Shown piece after piece: positions 12,884 through 36,631 of a DNA stretch of 64,000 bases. A program made the position numbers and the translations under genes. Numbering within the stretch: position 1 is the stretch's first letter; every line of letters begins with the position of its first letter. The notes below the pieces were generated by a model. That model ran no database searches. It had not been told where the DNA came from and saw only the letters and a list, made by a program, of their open reading frames with translations. This DNA comes from a virus: positions 1 to 64,000 of the IMG/VR virus record IMGVR_UViG_3300044940_000144. One strand, 5' to 3'.

Positions 12884-13214
12884 GCCCCTTGCTTAGCTTG
12901 GCCTTGCGTTTTCGGAGCTCGGTTTGAGCCTGTCGAGAGGCGTACTGCGCCCAGTGCTGGGACGCAGTACAGGCCAAATAGCAGCGTTTTCCTTGCGTTT
13001 CCATCGCCCGGAATCGCCCGCCGTTTCGGCCGAGAGACTCGAACCCGCCCAGGTAACGCTTTACCGGGTGGGGGGTAACTCCCCCGCTCGTCTCCCCTGC
13101 GCTCGCCTCGCGGCGACGCTCACGGCATGTGTGGCACCCGCCCGCTCTCTCCATTTTGCGGACGAGCCCACTCTGGGTTTTGTGCCAACTGGGGGTCGTC
13201 GCGATGGCCCCCAC
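12879..13214 (-). CDS. Hypothetical Cys-containing protein
   Basis: ORF with CHTC and CYLAC. Confidence 0.4.
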   Translation of the reverse strand: MGAIATTPSWHKTQSGLVRKMERAGGCHTCRERRREASAGETSGGVTPHPVKRYLGGFESLGRNGGRFRAMETQGKRCYLACTASQHWAQYASRQAQTELRKRKAKLSKGR

Positions 13215-22550: not shown

Positions 22551-22901
22551 CTAAGCATAGCACCTACCCATGCTCAGTTGACGCGCGCCGCCTCCGGCGA
22601 TCTTGGACATTTGAATCTCGTTCAGCGACGCCACCGGGGCGCCCAGGACGACGTTGACCAGGGGACGATACATGCGGCCGGTATCGAGATTGGCGATCAC
22701 CAGTGGTAGCCAGCGGCGGTGCACCGACGCCGCCCCGTGCTCGACGAGCGTGGTCAGGCTTATATCGGAGATGACAGCGCACGCGCCGGACGGCGAGGAG
22801 AGCACCATCGCCCACATGGGCGGTGGGTCGTCGCTTGGGTTCGGCTTGACCCCGAAGTGGACGCATAGATCGCGCAGGCGATCACGTCTGCTCATCGTCA
22901 T
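22551..22901 (-). CDS. Hypothetical protein
   Basis: ORF with AAAGGGGGAACC RBS. Confidence 0.6.
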   Translation of the reverse strand: MTMSRRDRLRDLCVHFGVKPNPSDDPPPMWAMVLSSPSGACAVISDISLTTLVEHGAASVHRRWLPLVIANLDTGRMYRPLVNVVLGAPVASLNEIQMSKIAGGGARQLSMGRCYA

Positions 22902-24081
22902 CGGTTCCCCCTTTCCTTTTTGACATCCTCCCCACGGCTAAGGCCCGGGGATTCCCGCCTCGGCCTGCACCCTTTCCTCGAAAAGGAGAAGGATGTCTTA
23001 CGGCGTCAGCAGCGGCAGGGTTGAGACCAGCCCTGGCCAGAATCGCTCTGGCAGCGTTTCTGTCGCGGTCGCTCACCAGCCCGCAGGCATGGCAGACGAA
23101 CTCGCGCTTTGCCAGTTCCAACCGCTGCTTGGCTCTCGCTCCACAGTTGGAACAGGTCATAGTCGTGTAGGCGGGCGGCACCAGCACCACCTTCCGGCCC
23201 GCCCGCTCGGCGTGTTCGATGAGGATGCGTTTCGCGACCCCGATGGCGGCGTCCTGAGCCTTGCGGGCCATCCTGGTCTTGGCGAGGAACGACGGCTTGA
23301 AGTCCTCGACGGCGAGCGCCCCGTGGTCGCGCACGACGGACACAGCCCACTTGCGGGCGGTGTCCTGTCGCTGTCGGACGACTTTCTTGGCAACTTTGGC
23401 CGCGTCCTGTTTCGCCTTGCGGTAGCCGACGGACCCCGCCTTGCCCCGCTCTGGCTTACGGCGAGCCATCCGTCGCTGGTACTTGGCGAGCGCCTTCGCC
23501 GCTTTGCGGGCGTACTGCGGATGCGGAAGGTCGTAGGCGGGGTCGGTGGTGGTGGCGATTGTCTTGACGCCCCAGTCGATGCCGATGGCGGCATCCGAAT
23601 CGGCCATCGGTTCGTCGTTCCGACGGACGACGAAACTGGCGTACCAATGGCCGAGAGAGTCACGGTACACCCGCACACTGGTCGGTTCGGACGGCAGGTC
23701 GCGGGACCACACGACAGGGATGCTCAGCCCACCGGCCAGACGCAGACGCCCATCCTTGAGCGAGAAGCCGCAGCGCGTGTAGTTGAGACTTGGCATGGTC
23801 CTGCGGGAGGACTTGAACTTGCGCCGCCCCTTGCCTTCGGCTCGCTTGGCGCGGAAGTTCCTCAACTCCTGCTGTTGCACGACGCTGCTACCGGCGCGGA
23901 GCCATTCGTGCTCGCGCCGCCATGCGGTCAGGTCACTGTCGCGGACCCATGTGCCCGTGGTCCGGAGCATGGCGACGGACTGGTTCCACAGCCAGCGGGT
24001 GCGGTGCCATTCGGAGATGAGCGCTCGCTCCGCCTTCGCACCGGGGCGCAGACGGTACTGGTAGCGCAAGACCGTCCCCAC
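22882..24081 (-). CDS. tnpB: RNA-guided endonuclease TnpB
   Basis: YRLRP, GIDWG (RuvC-I), VEDF (RuvC-II), CSNCG/CHACG, DRDRNAA (RuvC-III); TATGAT-7nt-GTG. Confidence 0.95.
   Translation of the reverse strand: MGTVLRYQYRLRPGAKAERALISEWHRTRWLWNQSVAMLRTTGTWVRDSDLTAWRREHEWLRAGSSVVQQQELRNFRAKRAEGKGRRKFKSSRRTMPSLNYTRCGFSLKDGRLRLAGGLSIPVVWSRDLPSEPTSVRVYRDSLGHWYASFVVRRNDEPMADSDAAIGIDWGVKTIATTTDPAYDLPHPQYARKAAKALAKYQRRMARRKPERGKAGSVGYRKAKQDAAKVAKKVVRQRQDTARKWAVSVVRDHGALAVEDFKPSFLAKTRMARKAQDAAIGVAKRILIEHAERAGRKVVLVPPAYTTMTCSNCGARAKQRLELAKREFVCHACGLVSDRDRNAARAILARAGLNPAAADAVRHPSPFRGKGAGRGGNPRALAVGRMSKRKGGTDDDEQT
22900..23060 (-). ncRNA. Predicted omegaRNA (reRNA) scaffold plus guide
   Basis: Overlaps the tnpB 3' end; scaffold ends at TCAA (22920-22923); guide would start AAAGGAAAGGGGGAACCGAT; 5' boundary approximate. 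Confidence 0.6.
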
Positions 24082-24161
24082 GTATTGGATCATACCAGCG
24101 ACGCGTGTAGCCCCGATTCCTTCCCATGCCTGAAGGCAGGGGCTTCCTCGGGGGTCATCTG
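22920..24161 (-). mobile_element. Non-autonomous IS200/IS605-family element (tnpB only, IS1341-like)
   Basis: TTTAC then left end with hairpin; right end GGGGAGGATGTCAA; no tnpA. Confidence 0.85.
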
Positions 24162-24171
24162 GTAAAGCAAG

Positions 24172-24253
24172 TGGGGGCCGAGGGAGTCGAACCCTCATGC
24201 CTTGCGGCGCCGGATTTTGAGTCCGGTGCGTATGCCAGTTCCGCCAGACCCCC
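24172..24253 (-). tRNA. tRNA-Leu(CAA)
   Basis: GGGGGTC/GGCCCCC acceptor stem, CCGGA-CTCAAAA-TCCGG anticodon arm, long variable arm, GGTTCGACTCC; CCA not encoded. Confidence 0.95.
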
Positions 24254-25601: not shown

Positions 25602-25648
25602 GTGCAGTGTAGTCCTAGTCCTCGTTCGCCTCCTCGGGAACGACGATC
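25602..25648. repeat. 47-bp duplicate of the AAA ATPase gene 3' end (~26621-26667)
   Basis: gtgcagtgtagtcctagtcctcgttcgcctcStcgggaacgacgatc at both loci, one mismatch. Confidence 0.9.
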
Positions 25649-25652
25649 AATC

Positions 25653-25706
25653 GCGTTTCGTCTCTGCCGTGAGACTCATCAGGCGGGCGGCATCAGCCCG
25701 CGACGC
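25653..25706 (-). ncRNA. Hammerhead ribozyme, type III
   Basis: gcGUC^gcgggc-ugaugcc-gcccgc CUGAUGA gucuc-acggca-gagac GAAAC gc; cleavage after 25702; loops ugcc/ggca complementary. Confidence 0.92.
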
Positions 25707-25733
25707 CGGGGGCACCGAAGTGCCCCCCGCCTT

Positions 25734-26105
25734 TTACCGGATGCCACTGACCACCCAGTCAAGCATGGCTTGGACCTGATAGTCCGGGACCAGGACCGAC
25801 GCGGGCGCCGCCGACGGATTGCCGGGATCGTGGATCGTGACCAGAAGGACACGGCCCGGGTTGTCGCGGATCCACGCAAAGACCTCGGGATACTCCTTCT
25901 CCATGCTTTCTGGTGGCTGCACACTATCCGGAGCCGACAAGTCGATCTGAGTGATCTGAAGGCACTCAGACCCAAGCAGGTCTGAGATGACCGCCACCCG
26001 GGAGTCGTCATTGACTCCTTTCGACTCCCACAGCGTGGTGAGAACCAGACCGTTCTGACCAGACGATGCGCGCTTTTCGCGCCGAGGACCGATTCGGAAT
26101 CCCAT
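25734..26105 (-). CDS. Hypothetical protein, paralog of 26118-26504
   Basis: EYPEVFAWIRDNPGRVLLV vs DHPDLIDWVKANPNRTAML; start uncertain. Confidence 0.55.
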   Translation of the reverse strand: MGFRIGPRREKRASSGQNGLVLTTLWESKGVNDDSRVAVISDLLGSECLQITQIDLSAPDSVQPPESMEKEYPEVFAWIRDNPGRVLLVTIHDPGNPSAAPASVLVPDYQVQAMLDWVVSGIR

Positions 26106-26117
26106 GGATCAATCCTT

Positions 26118-26504
26118 TCATCCGGCCATGATCCAGCCGATCAGGTCCCCGAGCTTTCCGGTGACGGCATCTGCGTCCAGGAACTTGGCGGTGGAGTCCT
26201 CCAGGCGCTCGCCCTTGTGGACCCACAGGGCCGCCTCAAGCAGTTGCTTGATGTCCAGGCAGCAGACAACTTGCGTCCCGTCTCCGGCCTCGACCACCAG
26301 CATCGCCGTCCGGTTGGGGTTGGCCTTCACCCAATCGATCAGATCGGGGTGGTCGCTGATGATCTCCCGCGGAACCTGCTCGTCGTCGTCGATGCGCAGG
26401 CTGAACAGCCCCCACGAGAAGTCTCCCGTGACCTCAAGGCCGTGGGCCATGCGATCGTCGTCCGAGACCTGGGCCAGCAGCAGCGGTTTCGGTTCGTAGC
26501 TCAT
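26118..26504 (-). CDS. Hypothetical protein
   Basis: AAAGGGGGAACC RBS. Confidence 0.7.
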   Translation of the reverse strand: MSYEPKPLLLAQVSDDDRMAHGLEVTGDFSWGLFSLRIDDDEQVPREIISDHPDLIDWVKANPNRTAMLVVEAGDGTQVVCCLDIKQLLEAALWVHKGERLEDSTAKFLDADAVTGKLGDLIGWIMAG

Positions 26505-26537
26505 TGGTTCCCCCTTTCATCGGTGCGTGCACGAAAT

Positions 26538-26595
26538 GGCGTTTCGGCCCTCGATTAGGCCATCATTCAGGCCGGGGAGATACCCCGACGACGCC
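26538..26595 (-). ncRNA. Hammerhead ribozyme, type III, with core insertions
   Basis: ggcGUC^gucgggg-uaucu-ccccggc CUGAAUGA U ggcc-uaaucgag-ggcc GAAAC gcc; cleavage after 26590. Confidence 0.8.
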
Positions 26596-26633
26596 CCCGG
26601 GCGCCGGAGCGCCCGGGTTCGTGCAGTGTAGTC

Positions 26634-28175
26634 CTAGTCCTCGTTCGCCTCGTCGGGAACGACGATCGAGCCGAACACGGTGTCGAAGCGGTCGCGCACC
26701 TGCGCGCCCTGAACCTGCGACTTGACCTGCCGGGTGACCAGCTCGCGCATGGCCAGGTCGATCGTCGGCAGACGCTCGCCCTCGCCAGCGTTCAGCATCA
26801 GCTGAAGCTGGCCGCGCAGGCCGTTGGCCGCGTTGACGAAGTCCTGCGTCGTCAGCACGTCCGGGCGCCCGCCCGTCCGGGTGACCGCGTAGCGGACGGC
26901 CCGGTCGATCGCCTCCTTGCAGAAGGCGGGCGTGTAGCCTGACATGGCCGAGTAAATCGCCTCGAAGTCGAGCTTTGGGGCGAGCATGTCGGCCGGTATG
27001 ACCGAGCGGATCAGGTCGCAGACCCCGTCCAGGTCGAGCGCGCCGAAGTGGATGGCGGCGTCCAGACGTCCCGGACGCATCATCCCCTTGTGGATGCGGT
27101 CGGCGTGGTTGGTGGTCATGACGATCATCAGCTCGGTGCCCTTCGCGGTGATCCCGTCGAAGATGTCGAGCAGGCGGGTGACGTTGTCGGACTCCCCGTT
27201 CTGGGCGATCGTATCGACGTCCTCGAAGAACACGACGGCGGGCTGGTAGAGCCGGGCCGTCGACACCACCGTGTCCAGGTCGTCCTTGCCCGGACGGCAG
27301 TAGATAAAGGTCCAGCCCTCCTCGACCGCAACTTGCGCGGTCAGGAAGGCCGCTAGCGTCTTGCCGGTGCCGAAGTCGCCCTCCAGCAGGACGGCGCGCT
27401 TCAGCGGGACCTTCAGCTCGCGCAAGATGTCCGCGTGGCGCAGCGGGGTCCACACGTTGGCGGCCAGCTGCTCACGGACGTCTTGCGAGTAGATGACCCG
27501 GTCGGGGTCGACCCCGGTGAGGTCGATGAACTCCGGCTCGGTCTGCCCGTCGATGGCCGCGCCCTTGTAGATCGAGTTGGAGGCCAGCTCCTGCTCGACC
27601 AACTTGAACAGGCCCTCGACGTGGCCGCGGAACTTGCGCGGCGCGTCGATCACCAGCCGGAACAAGGGGCCGTAGACGTAGTCGTACTTCTCGGTCGTGT
27701 GCATCACGCCCTCGAAGATCGGCACCTTGATCTTGCCCCACGGAACCTGCTCGGTGGCGTCCACGCCGACCGAGATGGTCCGCAGCTCCGGCGGGTACTG
27801 CCCGAAGAACGAGGACTGCGCCTTCTGGTGCCCGGTCGTGCCGAAGACCCGCTTGAGGGCCTTCGACAGCGCTCGCGCGCCGTCCAGCGGCCGGTATCGG
27901 AAGATCCGGCTGAACCGGGTCTCCTCCTCCTGCTGCTCGATGTGCGACTCCAGGAAGTTGATGACCCCGCGAAGGTCGCCCCGCATCGTCTCGGGGAAGA
28001 TGTACTTCTGCCCCTCGAAGTGCAGGTTGTCCTCGGTCACCAGCTGTCCGCCGAGCTTAGCAAGCGTGTCCAGCAGGTCACGCTCGATGCGCTTGGTGGA
28101 CGTCGGCGTCCTGACGGTTTTCTTCGAGGACGCCGAGACGTCCTCCTCCGCGGTGGTGATCGTGTCGTCAGACAT
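26634..28175 (-). CDS. AAA+ ATPase (classical AAA clade)
   Basis: GDFGTGKT, FFEDVD, TTNH..RPGRLD (SRH). Confidence 0.9.
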   Translation of the reverse strand: MSDDTITTAEEDVSASSKKTVRTPTSTKRIERDLLDTLAKLGGQLVTEDNLHFEGQKYIFPETMRGDLRGVINFLESHIEQQEEETRFSRIFRYRPLDGARALSKALKRVFGTTGHQKAQSSFFGQYPPELRTISVGVDATEQVPWGKIKVPIFEGVMHTTEKYDYVYGPLFRLVIDAPRKFRGHVEGLFKLVEQELASNSIYKGAAIDGQTEPEFIDLTGVDPDRVIYSQDVREQLAANVWTPLRHADILRELKVPLKRAVLLEGDFGTGKTLAAFLTAQVAVEEGWTFIYCRPGKDDLDTVVSTARLYQPAVVFFEDVDTIAQNGESDNVTRLLDIFDGITAKGTELMIVMTTNHADRIHKGMMRPGRLDAAIHFGALDLDGVCDLIRSVIPADMLAPKLDFEAIYSAMSGYTPAFCKEAIDRAVRYAVTRTGGRPDVLTTQDFVNAANGLRGQLQLMLNAGEGERLPTIDLAMRELVTRQVKSQVQGAQVRDRFDTVFGSIVVPDEANED

Positions 28176-28314
28176 AGATTGTTCCCCCCTTTAGGGTGTC
28201 GTGTTTGCCCAGCCTGATGGCTGGTGAGAACCCCTGCCTTTCGCAGGAGCTCTCATCAACCACCGTCAGGGCATGGGGGTGGCTCAAGACCACCCCCATA
28301 CACCCGATACAGCC

Positions 28315-28779
28315 CTAGCTGCTAAGCAGCGCTAGGGCGGCATCGACCAGCGCGATAGCCTGGTTCTCGCCGGTCAGGACATCGTCGTTGTACGCTTCCA
28401 CCAGACCGCGGCCATCGCCATCGGCACGGACGAAGCCGGTGTCGATGATGGCTTGGCACAGAGCGCGCTCGGCCTCCTTCACCGGGTCTGGCGTGGAGTC
28501 GTCGTCCATGTACGTCGCATTCGACGTATCGACTCCGGTCACCAGGCCGAGCATGCCCTCAAGGCATGCTGCGCAAAAGACATCGCCCGAGTCGGGCGTG
28601 ACCTCCATCGGGTTGCGGACCGCGAACTCATGGTCCTCCCCCTCGAAGGAGCGCACGATCAGGTAATCGTTCCTGGTCCAGGCGATCTGACTGGATTCGT
28701 ACAGCTCACGAATGCGCTGGAGAATCTCCGGCGCAGATGCGTGTCGCACGCACCCGACGATGTCGGTCGTGACGGTCAT
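28315..28779 (-). CDS. DUF6197-like hypothetical protein
   Basis: WTR..CLEG..YNDD..AIALVDAAL pattern. Confidence 0.5.
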   Translation of the reverse strand: MTVTTDIVGCVRHASAPEILQRIRELYESSQIAWTRNDYLIVRSFEGEDHEFAVRNPMEVTPDSGDVFCAACLEGMLGLVTGVDTSNATYMDDDSTPDPVKEAERALCQAIIDTGFVRADGDGRGLVEAYNDDVLTGENQAIALVDAALALLSS

Positions 28780-28850
28780 ATGTGGTTCCCCCTTGTGTGG
28801 GTTTTCGATGTCCAGCCCTTCGTTATGGGCTGGGCGGCCTAAGCCACTTT

Positions 28851-28918
28851 GGGCTACCGCTTCCCGGACGTCGGTGACGTCCGGGATTCATGCCTGCCCA
28901 GGGCAATCGTCAGGCGGC
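28851..28918 (-). ncRNA. Hammerhead ribozyme, type I, variant core (U15.1-A16.1)
   Basis: gccgc CUGACGA U ugcc-cugggca-ggca U GAAU cccggacguc-acc-gacguccggg AA^gcggu agccc. Confidence 0.7.
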
Positions 28919-31186
28919 TTACCGCTGATGACGACTGACCAGATGCGCGACCGTCGCGCGCATGCCGTCCTCAGCGTTCGACACCTCACCGTCGGTAGCG
29001 GCGTCAACCACAGCGGCCTTGCCCGAGAGCACTGCCTCCATGTCGGTGTCGATGGAGTCCTGGCACAGCAGCCAGTAGACGTTCACCATCTCGGCCGTTT
29101 GACCGATCCGGTGAACCCGGTCCTCGGCCTGTCGCATGTCCTTGGGCGTCCAGCCCAGTTCCAGAAACGCGACGTGCGACGCCGCGTGCAGGGTGAACCC
29201 TGCCTGCCCGGCCATGAGGCTGACGACGATCAGCCGCGTGTCCGGGTCGTTCTGGAACCGCTGCACGGACGCATCGTTGGCGTCGTTAGCGCCTCCGATG
29301 ACCCGCACCGCGCCCGGGAAGGCCTTGTAGAGCGCCTCCTGGGCCTCGCGGTGGTGGGCGAACAGCACCAGCTTTTCATCGCTGGACTCCAGGAACTCCT
29401 TCGTCCACTCGATGGCGTCGCGCACCTTGCCTTTCGCCGCCAGGCGACGAAGGGCGGTGAGCCGCGCCAGTGCTTCCGCTTGCAGCACCCTGCCGGGGTC
29501 GTAGCCGTTGGCAAGCAGCCACGCCACGAAGTCACGTTCGGCAAGCTCGTATTCGGCCCGATTCGTCAGGTCGACGTCGATGACCGAACGTAGCTTGGGC
29601 GGCAGGTCAGGCATGACCTGAGCCTTCGTGCGCCGCACGTAGCAGGATGACCGGAGCCGCTGATTGAGCTCCTCAAGGTTCGCGGCACCGCCGTATGTCG
29701 TGCCCCACTTGCTGTAGATGGGCTCGCAATAGCGGTTCTTGAACTGCCTGGGGCCACCGAACTCGGCGATCCGCCCCATCATCTTGAGAAGCGGGACAAG
29801 CTCCACCGGCCGGTTGACGACCGGGGTGCCCGTCAAAAGCAGGACGTTTTCGACCTGCTTGGAGAGCCACAAAAGCGCACGGGTGCGCTTTGCGTTCTCA
29901 TTTTTGGCGTAGTGGGCCTCGTCCACGACGAGCATCTTGGGCTGGATCTTCGCAAGCGCTTCGATCCAGCCTGCGGGCTCGCGCGTCCGGGAGCCGGGCA
30001 CGGCGTGGAGGTCTCCGAGGATGTCGTAGTTGACGATGACGACGTCCGCGTCAGCCACCAAGCCGTAGTCCGGCTTTTTGCCCGCCAGAACGGCGATGTT
30101 CAGGCCGGGCATCCACTTGTTGATCTCGCGCTCCCAGTTCCGCTTCAGAGCGGCCGGGCACACGATGACCAACGGCGCGGCATCCAGATACCACGCCACG
30201 CCGAGAGCCTGGAGGGTTTTCCCCAGGCCCATCTCATCGGCGATGAGCACGCCGCCAGAGGCAAGCCTCTTGATGGCGTACGCGACCCCTGCCCGCTGAA
30301 AGCCGAACAGGGACTCGCCCTCGGGGCCGAAGCCGTCGAGGTCAACGACCGCATCAGTGGCCATGGATTCCTCGATCGAGGTCTCCCGGTCCGCCTGCTG
30401 ATCGACGAACGAAATCGCCTCATTAGAGACGTCCCATCCGTGACGCAGGGCGTATGCGACAAGCTCCGGACCGTTCAGGGTGCTGACTTCCCAGATCCGG
30501 TTCACCTTGTTCCAGCGCCGCCCCTGCAGATTCCGAAGGAACGTAAGGTTCACTTCGAAGTCGGGGTGGCCCGGGGTCAGGTACACTGCGAAGGTCTTGC
30601 CGTCGCTGTCCAGATCAACCGCCGCAGGAACGATCTCATGCGGCGGCGGGGCCGACGCAATGTACTCGTCGGCCTTGTCGGTCAGCTTGAACGAGTGCTT
30701 CTTGGCGAACTCCGCGACTGCCGAAGCAGAACTCAGCGGAACGCGGTTGAAGCGCCCGTCCCAATGGCGACCTGGCAACGTCCGGACATCGGTAACGAGA
30801 TCGGCGTCGTAGCGGAATGCGATGACGAACTCATCGCCTTCCACGTCGATCAGCTTGGACGACTGCAGAGCTTTTTCCCGAAGCACCTTGCGTCCCGTTG
30901 CCTGCATGCGCTCGCGCCCGTAGTAGGTGCTCGCGACCTGGCCCGGGGGCTCGATGGCATCAAGATTGATCCCGGCGTCGGACAGCTGACGACGGTAGTG
31001 GCGAAGCATGGAATATGCCTCCCACGTCTCCTCGTCCGACCACGTGCCCGGGTCGGACGCTGCCAGACCGTGGCCGAACGAGGCGTCGGGCTTGGAGTAC
31101 CCTTGCCCGTCCTCGGATTCGGCCCAGTCGCACCGTGACGCCAGGTAACTGGCGGCCCGATGCAGAACGGTCCTTGTATCCGTCAT
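28919..31186 (-). CDS. SNF2-family helicase (SMARCAL1/HARP-like)
   Basis: IADEMGLGKT, DEAH, LTGTP, QAEDRVHRIGQ; N-terminal HARP-like repeats. Confidence 0.92.
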   Translation of the reverse strand: MTDTRTVLHRAASYLASRCDWAESEDGQGYSKPDASFGHGLAASDPGTWSDEETWEAYSMLRHYRRQLSDAGINLDAIEPPGQVASTYYGRERMQATGRKVLREKALQSSKLIDVEGDEFVIAFRYDADLVTDVRTLPGRHWDGRFNRVPLSSASAVAEFAKKHSFKLTDKADEYIASAPPPHEIVPAAVDLDSDGKTFAVYLTPGHPDFEVNLTFLRNLQGRRWNKVNRIWEVSTLNGPELVAYALRHGWDVSNEAISFVDQQADRETSIEESMATDAVVDLDGFGPEGESLFGFQRAGVAYAIKRLASGGVLIADEMGLGKTLQALGVAWYLDAAPLVIVCPAALKRNWEREINKWMPGLNIAVLAGKKPDYGLVADADVVIVNYDILGDLHAVPGSRTREPAGWIEALAKIQPKMLVVDEAHYAKNENAKRTRALLWLSKQVENVLLLTGTPVVNRPVELVPLLKMMGRIAEFGGPRQFKNRYCEPIYSKWGTTYGGAANLEELNQRLRSSCYVRRTKAQVMPDLPPKLRSVIDVDLTNRAEYELAERDFVAWLLANGYDPGRVLQAEALARLTALRRLAAKGKVRDAIEWTKEFLESSDEKLVLFAHHREAQEALYKAFPGAVRVIGGANDANDASVQRFQNDPDTRLIVVSLMAGQAGFTLHAASHVAFLELGWTPKDMRQAEDRVHRIGQTAEMVNVYWLLCQDSIDTDMEAVLSGKAAVVDAATDGEVSNAEDGMRATVAHLVSRHQR

Positions 31187-31215
31187 GGTCCCCCCTTGTT
31201 GTGGTGTACGGTAGG

Positions 31216-31280
31216 CGAGCTACCGCGACCTCCCTTTGCAGGGAGGTTTCGGCCTTGCTCAAGGGCCATCGTCAGGCGGC
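31216..31280 (-). ncRNA. Hammerhead ribozyme, type I
   Basis: gccgc CUGACGA U ggcc-cuugagcaa-ggcc GAAAC cuccc-ugcaaa-gggag GUC^gcggu; cleavage after 31227. Confidence 0.9.
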
Positions 31281-31298
31281 ATGTAGCTTGATTCCACT

Positions 31299-31517
31299 TC
31301 AAGAATCGTCGCCTTTCCTGAGGACGAGCCGCTGCCCCCGGCCGAGGCCGAGGGAGCATTCGAAGTAGTCGAAGCACGCTTTGCACAGATACCCCCAGGA
31401 ACCGCCAGTGGCGGGAATGCGGGCATCTGCGTATGCCTCGCCGTGGGCGGCGTCGATGTCGCAGAACGGGATCCTCTCGACGAGGATCGTGTTCGTGGAC
31501 TTGCCAGGCTCCGACAT
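31299..31517 (-). CDS. Conserved small phage protein
   Basis: CD..YADA..WGYLCKACF..LGLGRGQ motif. Confidence 0.75.
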   Translation of the reverse strand: MSEPGKSTNTILVERIPFCDIDAAHGEAYADARIPATGGSWGYLCKACFDYFECSLGLGRGQRLVLRKGDDS

Positions 31518-31542
31518 GATTCCCCCTTTGGTGCGTTCTCCC

Positions 31543-31603
31543 GCCTCCGTGCGACTCGTCAGGCCCCGTCCTGGGGCGACGCCCCCCTAGGGGGGCGTTT
31601 CGT
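31543..31603 (-). ncRNA. Hammerhead ribozyme, type II
   Basis: aC GAAAC gccccc-cuag-gggggc GUC^gcccc-aggac-ggggc CUGACGA Gucgcacggag; cleavage after 31578. Confidence 0.88.
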
Positions 31604-31611
31604 TCTTGTGT

Positions 31612-32013
31612 CTAGTAGTCCGCAGGCAGCATGGCCGTGTAGAAACCGGCCTCGTTCTGGACGAACCACACCCGCTCCGACCGGTCGGGCAGCCAGGACG
31701 TCAGCAGATAGCCGTCTTGCTTGTCCTCGGTCATCACCGCCTTATCGGCGGTGACTCTCAAGACGAGCGACGCAAGCGCACGGCGCACCTGCTCCGGCAT
31801 GTCCACGCCGACCGTTTTGTCGATGCACTTATCGATCTTGCCCATCAGGTGGGACGTCGCCCTGGTGACGACGCTCCGCGCCACCGGCCACGGAGCGTTT
31901 CGCAGGAACACGCCCCAATCGGTGCAGTTGATGAGCACGCCCTCGTCAAGGGCTACCTCGTCCGAGTAGAACGAATAGATGACGGGTATGTCATCGAACG
32001 GGTCGTCGGACAT
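31612..32013 (-). CDS. DUF6573-like protein
   Basis: VIYS..ALDEGVLI..TAMLPADY. Confidence 0.6.
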   Translation of the reverse strand: MSDDPFDDIPVIYSFYSDEVALDEGVLINCTDWGVFLRNAPWPVARSVVTRATSHLMGKIDKCIDKTVGVDMPEQVRRALASLVLRVTADKAVMTEDKQDGYLLTSWLPDRSERVWFVQNEAGFYTAMLPADY

Positions 32014-32060
32014 TGTTTGTCCCCCCTTTTTGGTTGTGTGCGTTCCCATAATGCAGTAGC

Positions 32061-32125
32061 GCGAGCTACCGCGACCCCCCGCCAGGGGGGGTTTCGGCCT
32101 TGCTCAAGGGCCATCGTCAGGCGGC
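32061..32125 (-). ncRNA. Hammerhead ribozyme, type I
   Basis: Same core and stems I/II as 31216-31280, with a different stem III; cleavage after 32073. Confidence 0.9.
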
Positions 32126-32129
32126 GTCG

Positions 32130-32399
32130 CTAAGACTCGTCCGATTGCCAGTACTCCCCGGAGTTGTGCTGGAAGACCCCCTCGGAGGTGTCAGGCACAT
32201 ACTCGCTCGGGTCCATCACCACGCGGGCCAGGACCTTGAAATCGCCGGAGATGTACCCGCGCTCCCGGGCCTTGCGAAGGCCCTTGAGCAGGTGCTCCAC
32301 GGCGGCCTTGCCGTAGCCGTTGTGGACGTCGAAACCGTCGGCGTAGTCGCCGACGCGCTCGATGGTGACCGAGTAGCTGTACACGGTGTCGTCGCTCAC
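32130..32399 (-). CDS. Hypothetical protein, paralog of 32504-32761
   Basis: SDDTVY.Y..RVGD..DG..ARERGYI.GD..DP. Confidence 0.75.
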   Translation of the reverse strand: MSDDTVYSYSVTIERVGDYADGFDVHNGYGKAAVEHLLKGLRKARERGYISGDFKVLARVVMDPSEYVPDTSEGVFQHNSGEYWQSDES

Positions 32400-32433
32400 C
32401 CTTGGTCCCCCCTTGTGTGGTTTTTCGCTTTTC

Positions 32434-32500
32434 GCCTCCGTGCGACTCGTCAGGCCCCGTCCTGGGGCGACGCCCCCCCTAGGGAGGCGTTTCGTTTCGC
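32434..32500 (-). ncRNA. Hammerhead ribozyme, type II
   Basis: Same architecture as 31543; cleavage after 32469; gcga/ucgc extends stem II. Confidence 0.88.
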
Positions 32501-32503
32501 GGG

Positions 32504-32761
32504 CTACATCTTCATCCACCGGTAGCTGTCCTCGAACTGGCCCATCGCGGGCTCCAGGTAGTCGTCCGGGTCGGTGTACACCGCGCGGGACCGGACCCGG
32601 ATGTCGCCAACGATGTAGCCACGGTCGCGGGCCTCTTGGAACTCCCGGAGGAGCTGCTCGGCCGCGCCCTTGGCAGTGCCGTCGTGGTGCTCGCGACCGT
32701 CCTGATCATCGCCGACCCGCACGACGTGCAGCAGGTAGCGGTAGACAGTGTCGTCGCTCAC
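32504..32761 (-). CDS. Hypothetical protein, paralog of 32130-32399
   Basis: GTG start after AAGGGGGAACC. Confidence 0.75.
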   Translation of the reverse strand: MSDDTVYRYLLHVVRVGDDQDGREHHDGTAKGAAEQLLREFQEARDRGYIVGDIRVRSRAVYTDPDDYLEPAMGQFEDSYRWMKM

Positions 32762-32795
32762 GTTGGTTCCCCCTTCGTAGTGATGATGCAGTAGC

Positions 32796-32860
32796 GCGAG
32801 CTACCGCGACCCCCCGCCAGGGGGGGTTTCGGCCTTGCTCAAGGGCCATCGTCAGGCGGC
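32796..32860 (-). ncRNA. Hammerhead ribozyme, type I
   Basis: Identical to 32061-32125; cleavage after 32808. Confidence 0.9.
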
Positions 32861-32862
32861 TT

Positions 32863-33321
32863 TTAGCGTCCGGAGCGCGCTCGGCGCCGATCCTCGTACT
32901 CGTCCACGGGGTGGCGAACGATGCGGCGCTCGTCGTCCAGGTCGTAGAGGCTGACCGGCGAGCACGCCGGGTGCCAGGTCTCGCCACCGCCGTAGGCGAT
33001 GGTGTGGCCACTGGCGAACTGCTTACCGCAGGAGCGGCAGTGGCCGGGGTACCTCGCCGTTATCAGCTTGACCGGGCGGACCACGTTCTGGTCGGCCTCG
33101 CCAGCGGCGCGCACGAGCTCGCGCATCGCGGCCTCCAGGGCGGCGATGTGGCGCTTGTGCGAGGCAATCTCCTCAGCCTGACGCTCAATGACGTCGGCCA
33201 TGTTGAAGATCACGTCGTCGAGCGACCTTACCTTCGCATCGACGTTGGCGAGCGCGCAGTCGACGGTGTCGAGCTTCTCAGCGAGCGACGCGACCGTCGG
33301 ACGCACAACAGTAGTACCCAT
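32863..33321 (-). CDS. Coiled-coil plus small Zn-binding domain protein
   Basis: ARYPGHCRSCG..WHPAC. Confidence 0.7.
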   Translation of the reverse strand: MGTTVVRPTVASLAEKLDTVDCALANVDAKVRSLDDVIFNMADVIERQAEEIASHKRHIAALEAAMRELVRAAGEADQNVVRPVKLITARYPGHCRSCGKQFASGHTIAYGGGETWHPACSPVSLYDLDDERRIVRHPVDEYEDRRRARSGR

Positions 33322-33349
33322 GGTTCCCCCTTGTGTGTTCCCGCTTCCC

Positions 33350-33416
33350 GCCTCCGTGCGACTCGTCAGGCCCCATCCTGGGGCGACGCCCCCAATAGAG
33401 GGGCGTTTCGTTCGCG
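33350..33416 (-). ncRNA. Hammerhead ribozyme, type II
   Basis: GAAAC gcccc-ucuauug-ggggc GUC^gcccc-aggau-ggggc CUGACGAG; cleavage after 33385. Confidence 0.88.
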
Positions 33417-33418
33417 GG

Positions 33419-33652
33419 CTAGACGATTTTGGCGTCGTCCGGCGTGCGGCGGCGAACCCAGACGTCGAACTGCTCGACTCCTGAGCAGTTACGGGCCTTC
33501 AGGCTGAAGCCGCTAGATGTGCCATCGCCGTAGTGAATCTTCGATAGCACGCGGCCGTCGGAGCACAGGACATAGGTCGTACTGACCCCGGATCCGTACT
33601 CGACCCGCCTACGGGCGACCTCAGTCGCGCCGCGAGCACTGATCTTCGCCAT
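33419..33652 (-). CDS. Hypothetical protein
   Basis: AAGGGGGGAAC RBS. Confidence 0.7.
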   Translation of the reverse strand: MAKISARGATEVARRRVEYGSGVSTTYVLCSDGRVLSKIHYGDGTSSGFSLKARNCSGVEQFDVWVRRRTPDDAKIV

Positions 33653-33684
33653 CGTTCCCCCCTTGTAGTGCGTTCCCCATCATC

Positions 33685-33750
33685 GCCTTCCGTGCGACTC
33701 ATCAGGCCCCAATCCATAGGGCGACGCTCCCCTGACGGGGAGCGTTTCGT
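33685..33750 (-). ncRNA. Hammerhead ribozyme, type II
   Basis: GAAAC gcucccc-guca-ggggagc GUC^gcccu-auggauu-ggggc CUGAUGAG; cleavage after 33723. Confidence 0.88.
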
Positions 33751-33757
33751 TTAGGGA

Positions 33758-34636
33758 CTACTGACGCCGGAGCGTCTTGCGCGGCCCGCGCTTGGTCTGG
33801 ACGACCTCGGGCTCGGCCTCGGCCTTCGCCTCCGGCTCGGCCTTCGCCTCCGGCTCGGTCCGGGCCCCGACGGGCTTGTTCTTGCCGTTGACCCCGACGG
33901 ACACCTTGAGAGTGCCGGTGGGGTTCTCCGTCGCCGGAGCCTCGCTGACGGCCTCGGCCTTGTCCGCCGCGTGCTTCTCAGCGAACCCATCGATGACCTT
34001 CTGCAGGGCGGACTTCTCCTTGTCCAGCTCGCGAAGCTGGGACTGGTAGTCGTTCGCCTGCTGCTCGGTCTTCATGTGCTCGATGAGCGTTGACATCGCC
34101 GAGAACACGAAGATCACGTCGGACGACAGGCCGGGCATGACCCGCTCGACCGCCTGCGCGACGGCGTTGCGGAAGGGGTCGGTGACCTTCCGACGGCCGA
34201 CCATGACGTCGACCTCGTACATGGCGTAGGCCATCACCATCATCCCGAACGCGAAGGCGTCGCGCGCCTTCGAGACGTGGGCGATCTTCTCCGACGCCGT
34301 CATCCGCGTCGGCCGCTGGAAGGCGCTCCCGCCGACGTGCTGGGTCAGGATCTCGACCGCCGCCTTGAACTGGGTCGTGAGAATCTCCCGGTCCAGCTTC
34401 GGCATGTCGAGGATCGACCCGTCTTTGAACGGGTTCGCGGCCTCCTCGGCGATCGTCGCCACCACGTCGAGGAACTCGGCGAACTGGGCCGAGTTTTCGG
34501 TCGTGGTGTGCTCCGCGCCGCCGAAGACGTGCTCAATCACGTCGTCCTTGGTCATCTTGCCGATCGCGTCGAGAAGGTCGCCCTCCTCGGTGGGGATCAG
34601 GTCGACCTTGCCGGGACGCTTGTAGGACGTGCTCAT
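33758..34636 (-). CDS. Hypothetical early protein
   Basis: 292 aa; AAAAGGGGGAACC RBS; EPEAKA repeats. Confidence 0.8.
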   Translation of the reverse strand: MSTSYKRPGKVDLIPTEEGDLLDAIGKMTKDDVIEHVFGGAEHTTTENSAQFAEFLDVVATIAEEAANPFKDGSILDMPKLDREILTTQFKAAVEILTQHVGGSAFQRPTRMTASEKIAHVSKARDAFAFGMMVMAYAMYEVDVMVGRRKVTDPFRNAVAQAVERVMPGLSSDVIFVFSAMSTLIEHMKTEQQANDYQSQLRELDKEKSALQKVIDGFAEKHAADKAEAVSEAPATENPTGTLKVSVGVNGKNKPVGARTEPEAKAEPEAKAEAEPEVVQTKRGPRKTLRRQ

Positions 34637-34664
34637 GGGGTTCCCCCTTTTGGGTGTGTGTTTT

Positions 34665-34728
34665 GCCTCCGTGCGACTCGTCAGGCCCCGTCATAGGGCA
34701 ACACCCCCCCGGCGGGGGGGTGTTTCGT
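34665..34728 (-). ncRNA. Hammerhead ribozyme, type II (GUU site)
   Basis: GAAAC acccccc c-gcc-ggggggg u GUU^gcccu-augac-ggggc CUGACGAG; cleavage after 34700. Confidence 0.85.
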
Positions 34729-35113
34729 TTGTGGACCGCCCCGAAGGACGTCCACACACACACACACACATAAAGGGTAGGGAACCGATATTTATCGCCT
34801 CACTGCACCCAATCCCGTCCGGGGACGGGCAGCGTGGCACGGACAGGGTCCAGTATGTACGCTGGAACCGAGTGTCGCCAGGGCAGGGGGTCCACAGGAC
34901 TAACGCACGCGCACGCGTGCGTGACCCTGCATGCTGAGCCCCTCGCGAACGCGCGTCGCACGCGACGCGCGCGCCAACTTCGAGCCCTCCCTGACCTGCG
35001 ACCGCCGCGCATAAGCACTCCGTGCGACGCGAGTCCAACTCGCCGCCCGCGCGACCCCGACGTTCGTGCCCGCGCGACCGCCGCAGCAACCGCGCGTCCG
35101 AAATGACACTTCC

Positions 35114-35143
35114 ATGCTAGCACCCCCCATCATGCAATGTCAA
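35114..35143 (-). promoter_or_regulatory. Strong sigmaA-type promoter for the ribozyme-punctuated region
   Basis: TTGACA-18nt-TAGCAT with TG extended -10 motif. Confidence 0.75.
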
Positions 35144-35154
35144 GCCCCCCCCCC

Positions 35155-35547
<393 letters not shown>

Positions 35548-35573
35548 CCCCCCCGCTTGCCGCCTGAGTGCCG

Positions 35574-35645
35574 GCTACCCCCCCCCGGGGGGGCCGCTAC
35601 CGCCCCCCGGGGGGGCCGCTACCGCCCCCCGGGGGGGCTACCGCC
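35574..35645. repeat. Three ~22-bp repeats GCTACCGCCCCCCGGGGGGGCC with palindromic C/G core
   Basis: Directly visible. Confidence 0.85.
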
Positions 35646-35673: not shown

Positions 35674-36246
35674 CTACCGCATGGGTGCCACCGAGCCCGT
35701 CCCGGTCTCCCAGGACAGCAAAAACACCTGGCAGTCGACCACGTCCACCGTGCGCGCGGACACGATGACGCGGGAGATTTCACGGCGCTTGATCCAACGC
35801 TTGGTGACGCTCATGCGGACGATCTGGACGTCGTCCTTCCAGGCGTGCTGATTGAGCGCGTCCATGACGAGCTTGGCGGCGTTGTCCAAGTCGGGCTTGG
35901 TCGCGTACGGATGAGGGAAGCGCTTACCGGACGCCGACAGCGCCCCGGACGACAGCGTATGCGACCCCGGACGCCGCAGGCAGACAGTGATATCGACCTC
36001 GATCGGCTTGTCCTGCCCCAAAAAACACGCCCCGGCGCGTCTCCAAGCCGTCTGGATCATCCGTTCGGCGATCTTGGTCCGGTCGCTGGTGCGCGTGTAC
36101 ACGCGGCCGCTGCTGCTAATGCTGAACCGCGGCCGCTCCTTGGTCGGGGCGTAGCGGTTCGAGTAAGGGTCCTTGGTACCCGCGTTCAGCCCGCCTGGGC
36201 CGTGAATGGGGATATCGAACTGGAAGTCACTGACGAGTCTGGTCAT
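35674..36246 (-). CDS. rusA: RusA-like Holliday junction resolvase
   Basis: KERPR, KPDLDNAAKLVMDAL..WKDDVQIV. Confidence 0.88.
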   Translation of the reverse strand: MTRLVSDFQFDIPIHGPGGLNAGTKDPYSNRYAPTKERPRFSISSSGRVYTRTSDRTKIAERMIQTAWRRAGACFLGQDKPIEVDITVCLRRPGSHTLSSGALSASGKRFPHPYATKPDLDNAAKLVMDALNQHAWKDDVQIVRMSVTKRWIKRREISRVIVSARTVDVVDCQVFLLSWETGTGSVAPMR

Positions 36247-36631
36247 GGCTGGGTGGCTTCCACCTGTCGTCCTTATCCGGATGATCGCGCAGGATCCCGG
36301 CGATGGCCAAGGCGTGGAAAACCAAGTGCCCGTAGTGAGCCATGCCGGACTCCGGGTCGATGTCCTCGCCACGGGCGATCGCGGTCAGATGGCGAAACGC
36401 AGAGGCGACCGACAACGACACCGGGTAGCCCTTGCGCCAGTTCTGGGGCGTGTACTTGGAAGCCCCATACCCGTACACCCGTGCGACCTCGTCCATGAGG
36501 TCCCACGGGATCAGATGGTACGCCTCAGGCTTGGCGTCCTTCATAGCGCCCGTATCGGGATCGGTGTAGCGGATCTCGGCCAGCTGCTGCTGGGCCAGAT
36601 CGGCGGCGTTGGTGATCTTGCGCACCGTCAA
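36227..36631 (-). CDS. dATP/dGTP diphosphohydrolase-domain protein (DUF5664)
   Basis: LIP..YGASKY..NWRKG..RHL..GEDIDPESG..H..H. Confidence 0.88.
   Translation of the reverse strand: MTVRKITNAADLAQQQLAEIRYTDPDTGAMKDAKPEAYHLIPWDLMDEVARVYGYGASKYTPQNWRKGYPVSLSVASAFRHLTAIARGEDIDPESGMAHYGHLVFHALAIAGILRDHPDKDDRWKPPSHDQTRQ

What the first reader, a model, noticed from the sequence alone, without database searches (positions are those of the whole stretch)
25653..34728. Phage early region punctuated by 11 hammerhead ribozymes of all three topologies
Seen: the minus-strand intergenic gaps contain complete hammerhead cores (CUGAYGA, GAAA, NUH) with fully paired stems. Type II at 34665, 33685, 33350, 32434, 31543; type I at 32796, 32061, 31216, 28851; type III at 26538, 25653. 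Nine consecutive gaps from 34.7 to 28.8 kb each hold one. All are sense-strand; ten lie between a stop codon (or the leader) and an AAGGGGG RBS, and 25653 is separated from the next RBS by a duplicated segment and another structure. Stem III sequences differ between copies but keep pairing. Established: hammerheads self-cleave to give 2',3'-cyclic phosphate and 5'-OH ends; T7 uses host RNase III to cut its early polycistron. Inference: this phage processes one early transcript protein-independently into mostly single-gene 5'-OH mRNAs, which could resist 5'-monophosphate-dependent decay by RNase E/J. Units have RtcB-compatible ends and could be circularised. The repeats may also serve as recombination points for swapping gene cassettes.
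Basis: partly seen in the sequence, partly recalled or inferred. Interest (0 to 1): 0.96.

Follow-up and report, generated by a model that had tools for sequence, protein, structure and literature searches.

The report
Hammerhead ribozyme array in phage operon
An uncultured hot-spring phage places nine well-formed and two altered self-cutting hammerhead RNAs between the genes of one operon, probably chopping one long transcript into single-gene messages; the layout has been known in phages since 2011, so this is a large, mixed example rather than a new phenomenon.

Summary
A strict descriptor finds nine canonical hammerheads, all on the minus (sense) strand between 25.6 and 34.7 kb: five type II, three type I and one type III. 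None appeared in 100 shuffled genomes. The other two claimed copies have non-canonical cores. One has an insertion after A6. The other has a flipped 15.1-16.1 pair. Both match natural variants reported to cleave slowly. Stems and a loop II/3'-tail pseudoknot covary with relatives in other viral contigs.

The host genome is a complete 76-kb myovirus from a hot-spring mat metagenome. The array sits in its non-structural operon, behind one strong promoter-like site.

The most likely function is self-processing of a polycistronic RNA into mono- or dicistronic mRNAs. In every case these would end in a GC hairpin and begin with a hairpin.

This layout was described by Perreault et al. 2011. I found arrays of 6-7 copies in other phages. 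Earlier notes of this scan report up to 30 copies on other DNA.

Cleavage is untested and no RNA data exist. Verdict: a new member of a known kind.

The parts
35114..35143 (-). Promoter-like site TTGACA-18 nt-(TG)TAGCAT, the only good minus-strand match in 22.5-37.5 kb
   Evidence: sequence
34729..35107 (-). ORF-poor leader of about 380 nt, which would be released by the first ribozyme
   Evidence: folds no better than shuffles; the 34790-34750 segment pairs with the gene-1 5'UTR
34664..34728 (-). Type II hammerhead #1, cleavage after U34700, with 3' tail CGCACGGAGGCA
   Evidence: (26.5 bits)
33684..33750 (-). Type II hammerhead #2, cleavage after C33723
   Evidence: (32.2 bits)
33349..33411 (-). 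Type II hammerhead #3, cleavage after C33385
   Evidence: (33 bits)
32788..32860 (-). Type I hammerhead #1 (extra U after A9; loop II GAGC pairs with tail GCUC), cleavage after C32808, with the post-cleavage 5' hairpin
   Evidence: 71 bits
32433..32495 (-). Type II hammerhead #4, cleavage after C32469
   Evidence: (28.6 bits)
32053..32125 (-). Type I hammerhead #2, cleavage after C32073; 99% identical to #1 over 78 nt
   Evidence: (family D3)
31542..31603 (-). Type II hammerhead #5, cleavage after C31578
   Evidence: (31.4 bits)
31208..31281 (-). Type I hammerhead #3, cleavage after C31227; stem III differs from #1 and #2 by compensatory changes
28839..28921 (-). Diverged type I copy with U15.1-A16.1, A17 (predicted cut after A28861) and an imperfect stem II; the pseudoknot is kept by covariation (UGGGC/GCCCA)
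   Evidence: z -5.7; 33.2 bits, E about 1e-7, not in the seed
26538..26617 (-). Type III-shaped copy with core CUGAAUGA (insertion after A6), predicted cut after C26590, preceded by a 9-bp GC hairpin (26596-26617)
   Evidence: (z -4.9)
25653..25728 (-). Canonical type III hammerhead, cleavage after C25702, preceded by a GC hairpin (25708-25728); loop I UGCC and loop II GGCA could pair
   Evidence: (36.1 bits, E 7e-5)
25734..34636 (-). Twelve operon genes, each behind an A(A)GGGGG RBS: 34636-33758, 33652-33419, 33321-32863, 32761-32504, 32399-32130, 32013-31612, 31517-31299, 31186-28919 (SNF2 helicase), 28779-28315 (DUF6197), 28175-26634 (AAA ATPase), 26504-26118, 26105-25734
25602..26667 (-). 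Two-gene cassette with both type III-shaped copies, bracketed by 47-bp direct repeats (26621-26667 and 25602-25648, 98% identical)
   Evidence: family D11

Best explanation
The region is one rightward-to-leftward (minus-strand) non-structural operon of a 76-kb myovirus. Almost every gene junction carries a self-cleaving hammerhead ribozyme.

Proposed mechanism: host RNA polymerase starts at the promoter-like site near 35.11 kb and makes one long RNA. Each ribozyme folds as it is transcribed and cuts itself at H17. Predicted products are a leader of about 400 nt; seven single-gene mRNAs of 340-980 nt; the SNF2 helicase mRNA (about 2.4 kb); a DUF6197+ATPase unit (about 2.3 kb); and a two-gene unit (about 0.9 kb). 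The last three boundaries depend on the two core-variant copies, which probably cut slowly.

Whatever the topology, each upstream product ends in an 8-11-bp GC hairpin 1-6 nt from a 2',3'-cyclic phosphate. Each downstream product starts at nucleotide +1 with a hairpin and a 5'-OH, followed 30-75 nt later by a strong RBS. The likely benefit is that each cistron's stability and translation become independent of its neighbours, with both ends structurally protected.

Shown by computation: the motifs, their covariation, orientation and placement, and the shapes of the product ends. Inferred: a single transcript, cleavage in vivo, and the effect on stability.
For: - Nine canonical hammerheads, all sense-strand, against 0 in 100 shuffles. 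Six have Rfam E-values of 7e-5 to 0.06.
- Type I copies aligned with 23 relatives from other viral contigs: 89.9% of cells paired, against 29-41% when partners are slid. 14 of 20 pairs change on both sides. The loop II/3'-tail pseudoknot covaries in 4 of 4 pairs.
- Stem III shows compensatory changes among the five type II copies within this genome.
- The variant at 28.85 kb is found by a model built without it (33 bits). It keeps the pseudoknot through a double change.
- There is one promoter-like site upstream and no convincing minus-strand terminator inside the operon.
- Every copy lies between a stop codon (or the leader) and an A(A)GGGGG RBS.
- Product ends are hairpins in all eleven cases. 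In 93 non-redundant type I relatives, the 5' end of the downstream product is paired in 86%, against 60 +/- 4% for shuffles.
- Published precedent: triple prophage hammerhead clusters cleave fully in vitro and in vivo. The A6a-insertion and U15.1-A16.1 variants cleave slowly (PMC3088659; PMC10085705).
Against: - No cleavage or expression data exist for this phage, and no RNA sequencing run holds it.
- No copy reaches Rfam's gathering score.
- The type II copies have only a 2-bp open stem II and no identifiable stem I/II tertiary pairing. Pairing between their flanks is no better than chance.
- The single-transcript model rests on consensus scans only.
- The nearest relatives by ATPase (57% aa identity) have tightly packed genes and no ribozymes. 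The array is therefore dispensable for this gene set.
- The near-identity of the modules (99% over 78 nt) beside genes only 51% identical could reflect recent spread rather than long selection.
- The end-protection idea is weak for type III relatives: 4 of 8 have an upstream hairpin.
- In hosts with RNase J, a 5'-OH may destabilise rather than protect.
Confidence: 0.62

Rival explanations
1. Cleavage serves decay or timing rather than stabilisation. The cuts expose 5'-OH ends that a host 5'-exonuclease (RNase J type) attacks. Fast canonical copies and slow variant copies would then set different lifetimes and amounts for each cistron, for example a rapid shut-off of the small first genes.
For: The glmS ribozyme's 5'-OH product is degraded by RNase J1 (PMC3328962). 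Two copies carry core changes reported to slow cleavage, so cleavage rates are not uniform along the operon. Perreault et al. raise regulated cleavage for phage variants.
Against: Every downstream product begins with a stable hairpin at nucleotide +1. This feature is enriched across the type I family. By general knowledge of 5'-terminal stem-loops, it would hinder 5'-end-dependent nucleases. The host, and therefore its RNases, is unknown.
Confidence: 0.15
2. The ribozyme modules are mainly selfish or recombinogenic repeats. These 78-81-nt units spread or are homogenised within the operon and mediate cassette gain, loss and duplication. Any effect on mRNA would be secondary.
For: Modules have sharp boundaries and are up to 99% identical, while flanking paralogous genes are 51% identical. 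A 1-kb two-gene cassette with a ribozyme at each end is bracketed by a 47-bp direct repeat. The closest relatives by ATPase lack the array. Assembly graphs break at the repeats.
Against: Catalytic cores are intact in 9 of 11 copies. Differences between copies are compensatory. All copies are in sense orientation and placed exactly between stop codon and RBS. That pattern is what selection on the RNA predicts, not what neutral repeats predict.
Confidence: 0.12
3. The units between two ribozymes are ligated by host RtcB into circular mRNAs or RNA circles.
For: The ends (5'-OH and 2',3'-cyclic phosphate) suit RtcB chemically (established chemistry). RtcB is present in many bacteria (control row).
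Against: The phage encodes no RtcB or RNA ligase. Perreault et al. looked for circular or spliced products from clustered prophage hammerheads and detected none. The two ends of each unit are each locked in a separate hairpin, with no pairing that would bring them together.
Confidence: 0.04
4. The motifs do not cleave in vivo. They act only as structured spacers, such as exonuclease barriers, translational insulators or terminators of antisense transcription.
For: Stems III and I are very GC-rich hairpins. On the plus strand, two type II modules look like intrinsic terminators. No copy passes Rfam gathering.
Against: Conservation of the unpaired catalytic nucleotides (CUGANGA, GAAA, H17) in nine copies and in more than 100 relatives has no explanation without catalysis. 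The covarying pseudoknot is the tertiary element shown to be needed for fast cleavage.
Confidence: 0.05

Closest known systems
Clustered hammerhead ribozymes flanking single genes or short gene blocks in prophages (Perreault et al. 2011, PLoS Comput Biol, PMC3088659)
   Same: Several hammerheads of types I, II and III lie in one orientation between phage genes. They are proposed to cut long transcripts into operon- or gene-length mRNAs. Pseudoknots join stems I and II. Natural slow variants occur with an insertion after A6 or with U15.1-A16.1.
   Different: The tested clusters there had three copies. Here there are 9 canonical plus 2 variant copies in 9 kb, in an uncultured hot-spring myovirus. 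The type II copies carry an invariant 3' mini-hairpin instead of the loop I/tail pseudoknot described there.
Rfam Hammerhead_II (RF02276), Hammerhead_3 (RF00008), Hammerhead_1 (RF00163) and HH9 (RF02275)
   Same: The core and three-helix junction are the same. Five copies align end to end with RF02276 and one with RF00008.
   Different: All scores fall below gathering (26.5-36 bits). The type I copies are not detected at all. They belong to a widespread viral family with an extra U after A9 and a tail pseudoknot, found in more than 114 IMG/VR contigs.
Phage T7 early-transcript processing by host RNase III (established knowledge, not tested here)
   Same: One long early transcript is cut in the intergenic regions into gene-length mRNAs that end in hairpins.
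   Different: In T7 a host protein cuts double-stranded sites and leaves 5'-phosphate and 3'-OH. Here the RNA would cut itself, leaving 5'-OH and 2',3'-cyclic phosphate. The resemblance is in how it works, not in ancestry.
glmS ribozyme with RNase J1 decay (Collins et al. 2007, as reviewed in PMC3328962)
   Same: Self-cleavage within an mRNA yields a 5'-OH downstream product whose fate depends on host 5'-end-dependent nucleases.
   Different: glmS is ligand-activated and destabilises its message. Here there is no ligand domain, and each downstream product has a hairpin at its very 5' end.
Other hammerhead arrays noted by this scan on other DNA (e1-5865677, e1-5967410, e1-6029276, e1-5899842)
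   Same: Nearly one hammerhead per gene junction in small-gene operons of uncultured or Streptomyces phages (unchecked AI notes). My own search found 6-7 type I copies in each of five other viral records.
   Different: Those notes report up to 17-30 copies, often of one topology. This array is mid-sized, but it mixes three topologies drawn from two sequence lineages.

Membership tests
Hammerhead ribozyme (class) | Conserved core: C3 U4 G5 A6 N7 G8 A9 ... G12 A13 A14 ... A15.1-U16.1, H17 | tested here: met
   Met by nine copies. Not met by the copy at 26538-26595 (CUGAAUGA) or the copy at 28839-28921 (GAAU...AA with an imperfect stem II).
Hammerhead ribozyme (class) | Three helices around the core, paired up to the core and supported by covariation | tested here: met
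   Type I copies with relatives: 89.9% of cells paired against 29-41% when slid; 14 of 20 pairs change on both sides. Compensatory stem III changes occur among the type II copies. Stem II of the type II copies is only 2 open base pairs.
Hammerhead ribozyme (class) | Tertiary contact between stems I and II (loop-loop contact or pseudoknot), needed for fast cleavage | tested here: inconclusive
   The type I loop II/tail pseudoknot covaries in 4 of 4 pairs and in the 28.85-kb variant. The type III copy at 25702 has a possible 4-bp loop-loop pairing (UGCC/GGCA), seen in one sequence only. No pairing was found for the five type II copies or for the 26.5-kb copy.
Hammerhead ribozyme (class) | Site-specific self-cleavage giving 2',3'-cyclic phosphate and 5'-OH | not testable with these tools
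   No RNA run holds the sequence. An in vitro assay is needed.
Rfam hammerhead families (RF02276, RF00008, RF00163, RF02275) | Score at or above the curated gathering threshold | tested here: not met
   Best scores are 33 bits (gathering 37) for RF02276 and 36.1 bits (gathering 48.5) for RF00008. The type I copies get no hit from RF00163 or RF02275.
Clustered prophage/phage hammerhead arrays (Perreault et al. 2011) | Several hammerheads in one orientation flanking single genes or short gene blocks of a phage transcript | tested here: met
   Eleven copies, all sense-strand, bound 7 single genes and 3 larger units in a complete phage genome with sheath, baseplate and portal genes.
Viroid-like / retrozyme circular RNAs | A unit bounded by hammerheads that is circularised and replicated or retro-transposed | not tested
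   No RNA data. There is no ligase in the phage. Not filed under this family.

The most novel reading that the evidence does not exclude
Topology is used as a design variable and changes easily within phage arrays. The operon holds two sequence lineages of hammerhead, each present in two circular permutations.

Lineage A has an extra U after A9 and a GGCC stem II. It occurs as type I and as type III.

Lineage B has GUC(G/U)CACGG after the core. It occurs as type II and as type III.

On this reading the five type II copies would be an undescribed 'nicked stem II' form. They have two open base pairs stacked on a retained 3-bp mini-hairpin that preserves loop II. The form would derive from the co-resident type III form by recombination between neighbouring copies.

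The mix of topologies would ensure that every cistron is released with a hairpin at both ends.
Probability: 0.25. Interest if true: 0.55.

Novelty: new member of a known kind. Interest (0 to 1): 0.36.

Why it matters
The biological reason why phages cluster self-cleaving ribozymes between their genes is still open; the 2023 permutation paper says so explicitly.

This operon is a compact natural test set:
- nine canonical copies in three topologies;
- two natural core variants;
- two ribozyme-free gaps under one promoter.

In vitro work on about 9 kb could therefore ask three questions at once. Does topology decide which product keeps the ribozyme? Do terminal hairpins protect the products? Do slow variants leave deliberate dicistrons?

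It also shows a practical gap. Rfam's curated thresholds and type I models miss all of these copies, along with a type I family present in more than 100 viral contigs. Standard annotation therefore under-reports such arrays.

It does not reveal a new class of element.

Tried and rejected
- **Expression data.** No RNA holder is listed for the 9.8-kb stretch. The DNA runs laid on it were the same sample at lower depth and said nothing on cassette exchange. One low-depth joint (25739 to 28876) is not reliable.
- **Relatives of the type II form.** Exact-pattern scans of viral, metagenome and genome collections for the CGCACGG tail gave only chance hits in coding DNA, or ordinary type II copies. 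The tail mini-hairpin could therefore not be tested by covariation.
- **A distal helix closing stem II of the type II copies.** Flank-to-flank duplex energies are no better than shuffles.
- **Cleavage changing RBS accessibility.** The result is inconsistent: accessibility rises for the three type I copies and not for the others.
- **Post-cleavage 5' hairpin in alignment A1.** 71% of cells are paired against 38-51% when slid, but no covariation is possible because GCGG is invariant. The broader shuffle test was positive.
- **Upstream hairpin as a general type III feature.** Only 4 of 8 relatives have one.
- **Leader as trans antisense to all operon RBSs.** Only the pairing with gene 1's own UTR stands out.
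- **Cultured relatives.** Megablast and blastn against 50,697 phage records gave no match. The nearest cultured phages by ATPase (Gordonia phages, 42% aa identity) have a different layout and no hammerheads.
- **Phage-encoded end-healing enzymes.** There is no RtcB or RNA ligase. The AAA_33 hit is a Zeta-toxin-like kinase, not a polynucleotide kinase.
- **The 28.2-kb gap as a decayed hammerhead or another known ribozyme.** No Rfam hit at E up to 10, and the GAA of the core is absent.

Full report
**Observation**

I scanned the window and then the whole 75,957-bp genome on both strands with a strict descriptor. It required CUGANGA, GAAA, A15.1-U16.1, H17, and helices paired from the core outward, and it allowed all three topologies.

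It returned nine hits, all on the minus strand, all between 25.6 and 34.7 kb:
- type II, cleaving after 34700, 33723, 33385, 32469 and 31578;
- type I, cleaving after 32808, 32073 and 31227;
- type III, cleaving after 25702.

One hundred dinucleotide shuffles of the genome gave no hit at all.

Rfam at gathering thresholds reports no hammerhead. In E-value mode it aligns the five type II copies end to end with RF02276 (26.5-33 bits, gathering 37). It aligns the type III copy with RF00008 (36.1 bits, E 7e-5, gathering 48.5). Rfam's type I models do not see the type I copies.

Two of the eleven claimed copies are not canonical:
- The copy at 26538-26595 has full type III shape (fold z -4.9), but its core reads CUGAAUGA, with one extra base after A6.
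- The copy at 28839-28921 has type I shape but reads GAAU...AA (U15.1-A16.1, A17) and has an imperfect stem II.

Both kinds of change were found in natural hammerheads and shown to cleave, but slowly (PMC3088659; PMC10085705).

**Context**

The window is the first 64 kb of a complete IMG/VR virus record with direct terminal repeats. It was assembled from a hot-spring / microbial-mat metagenome.

The virus is a myovirus. It has a tail sheath, baseplate wedge, tail fibre, portal and endolysin. Almost all genes are on the minus strand.

The ribozyme region is the non-structural module: an SNF2 helicase, a DUF6197 protein, an AAA ATPase (phrog_10440) and nine small proteins of unknown function.

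The only good sigma-70-like site on the minus strand in 22.5-37.5 kb is TTGACA-18-(TG)TAGCAT at 35143-35114. It lies about 400 nt upstream of the first ribozyme. No convincing minus-strand terminator lies inside the operon.

'Early' is therefore plausible but inferred.

The strong A(A)GGGGG ribosome-binding site is concentrated in this operon.

The closest cultured phages by ATPase are Gordonia terrae phages at 42% aa identity. Their layout differs and they have no hammerheads. Two IMG/VR relatives at 57% identity have tightly packed genes and no ribozymes. The array is therefore lineage-specific.

**Are they real ribozymes?**

The family has stem I CCGC/GCGG and usually an extra U after A9. 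Arrays reach 5-6 copies in the fetched stretches and 6-7 copies in whole records.

I aligned the three window copies with 23 relatives (A1):
- 89.9% of cells form standard pairs, against 29-41% when partners are slid.
- 14 of 20 pairs change on both sides.
- A pseudoknot between loop II and the tail just 3' of stem I covaries in all four pairs. It reads GAGC/GCUC here, and UGGC/GCCA, UAGC/GCUA, GGCU/AGCC, GGGU/ACCC and GAAA/UUUC elsewhere.

Perreault et al. showed that such pseudoknots are needed for fast cleavage.

A covariance model built from A1 finds the 28.85-kb variant, which was not in the seed, at 33 bits (E about 1e-7). It finds nothing else in the window. That variant keeps the pseudoknot through a double change (UGGGC/GCCCA), which argues that it is still under selection.

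Among the five type II copies, stem III differs by compensatory changes (G-C to A-U, and C-G to U-A). The core and a 12-13-nt tail are invariant.

**Two lineages, three topologies**

Repeat analysis (family D4) shows that the type III copy's segment GCCUGAUGAGUCUCACGGCAG is 81-90% identical to the type II copies' GCCUGAYGAGUCGCACGGAGG.

In the type III copy this segment forms the closed stem II (GUCUC-ACGGCA-GAGAC).

In the type II copies only A11.2 and C11.1 come from the 5' side. The tail can fold into CGC-ACGGAG-GCG (4 of 5 copies; folds). I read the type II copies as a stem II of two open pairs stacked on a retained mini-hairpin.

This rests on one genome, because no relatives with that tail were found in any collection.

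Likewise, the 26.5-kb type III-shaped copy shares the extra U and the GGCC stem II of the type I family. So does a type III copy in another contig, L016.

The operon thus holds two sequence lineages, each in two permutations.

**How it probably works**

For all eleven sites I folded the last 45 nt of the upstream product and the first 45 nt of the downstream product.

Every upstream product ends in an 8-11-bp GC hairpin that stops 1-6 nt before the cut. This is stem III for types I and II, and a separate hairpin just upstream for both type III-shaped copies.

Every downstream product begins with a hairpin at nucleotide +1. This is stem I for types II and III. For type I, the released GCGG strand re-pairs with a downstream complement.

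In 93 non-redundant type I relatives, the 5' end of the product is paired in 86%, against 60 +/- 4% of shuffles. The alignment-based test was inconclusive, and the type III sample is small (4 of 8).

The best reading is co-transcriptional self-processing of one long RNA into seven monocistronic mRNAs plus larger units. Each unit would be capped by structure at both ends and carry its own strong RBS.

The slow-variant copies may deliberately leave SNF2 / DUF6197+ATPase / two-gene units partly joined. None of this is shown experimentally.

- *Resistance of 5'-OH ends to RNase J.* This is contradicted by the glmS precedent, where the 5'-OH product is an RNase J1 substrate. If the ends are protected, the terminal hairpins are the better candidate.
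- *Circularisation.* This has no support. The phage has no ligase. The one kinase-like hit is Zeta-toxin-like. A published search for circles in comparable clusters was negative.
- *The recombination idea.* This has some support. Modules of 78-81 nt have sharp edges and up to 99% identity, beside paralogous genes only 51% identical. A 1-kb two-gene cassette with a ribozyme at each end is bracketed by a 47-bp direct repeat. Assembly graphs break at the repeats.

**Comparison and verdict**

Perreault et al. (2011) described clustered hammerheads flanking single genes in prophages. They proposed exactly this processing role, and triple clusters cleaved in vitro and in vivo.

Later work notes that ribozymes are enriched near phage genes and near one another, for reasons still unknown.

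Earlier notes of this scan report the same layout on other DNA in at least 71 genomes, with up to 17-30 copies (unchecked). My own search confirms 6-7 copies in five other viral records.

This is therefore a genuine, well-formed, fairly large and unusually mixed member of a known kind, not a new kind of system.

Its modest added value lies in four things:
- the two-lineage, three-topology composition;
- the type II form with a 3' mini-hairpin;
- the uniform hairpin-capped product ends;
- the demonstration that curated models miss these copies.

Noticed in passing
window 28176-28318 (-): This is the one long gap in the operon without a hammerhead (DUF6197 to ATPase). It folds into three very stable adjacent hairpins (MFE -79 kcal/mol, z -7.0) and has no Rfam match at E up to 10. 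Ribozymes cluster with other ribozymes, so it is a candidate for another processing element.
   Followed up: partly
window 25602-26667: A 47-bp direct repeat (98% identical) duplicates the 3' end of the ATPase gene. It brackets a 1-kb cassette made of hairpin + type III-like ribozyme + two weakly paralogous genes + hairpin + type III ribozyme.
   Followed up: partly
window 34750-34790 (-) versus 34637-34664 (-): A leader segment (GGUUCCCUACCCUUUAUG(UG)n) is complementary to gene 1's 5'UTR/RBS on the other side of the first ribozyme. The duplex energy is -33 kcal/mol, and only 1 of 300 shuffles is as good. Pairing with the other operon UTRs is not above chance.
   Followed up: partly
window 35155-35548 and 35574-35638: About 100 imperfect copies of a 4-nt unit (GCCA on the plus strand) lie immediately upstream of the operon's promoter-like site. 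Next to them is a 22-nt unit repeated three times.
   Followed up: no
window 22882-24253 (-): A TnpB-type gene (OrfB_IS605 plus a Cas12f1-like TNB domain, 395 aa) lies directly downstream of a tRNA-Leu(CAA) gene (24171-24253), just after the ribozyme operon.
   Followed up: no
window 13031-13182 (-): An Rfam EGFOA RNA match scores above gathering (47.5 bits against 37.7), next to the portal gene region.
   Followed up: no
window 36227-36631 (-) and 21401-22348 (-): There is a dATP/dGTP diphosphohydrolase N-terminal domain protein and a radical-SAM (QueE-like) protein. These hint at nucleotide-pool or DNA-modification functions. No PurZ-like gene was seen among the ORFs tested.
   Followed up: partly
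window 31578-31599 and 34700-34724 (+): Read on the antisense strand, two type II modules (stem III followed by UUUCGUU) score as intrinsic-terminator-like sites. They could block antisense transcription into the operon.
   Followed up: no
window 61905-62513 (-): A Zeta-toxin-like P-loop kinase domain protein (Pfam E 3e-23) sits among the head/neck genes.
   Followed up: partly
loci L012-L134 (IMG/VR): A type I hammerhead family has stem I CCGC/GCGG, usually an extra U after A9, and a loop II/tail pseudoknot. It occurs in more than 114 viral contigs, but Rfam RF00163 and RF02275 did not detect the window's three copies of it.
   Followed up: partly
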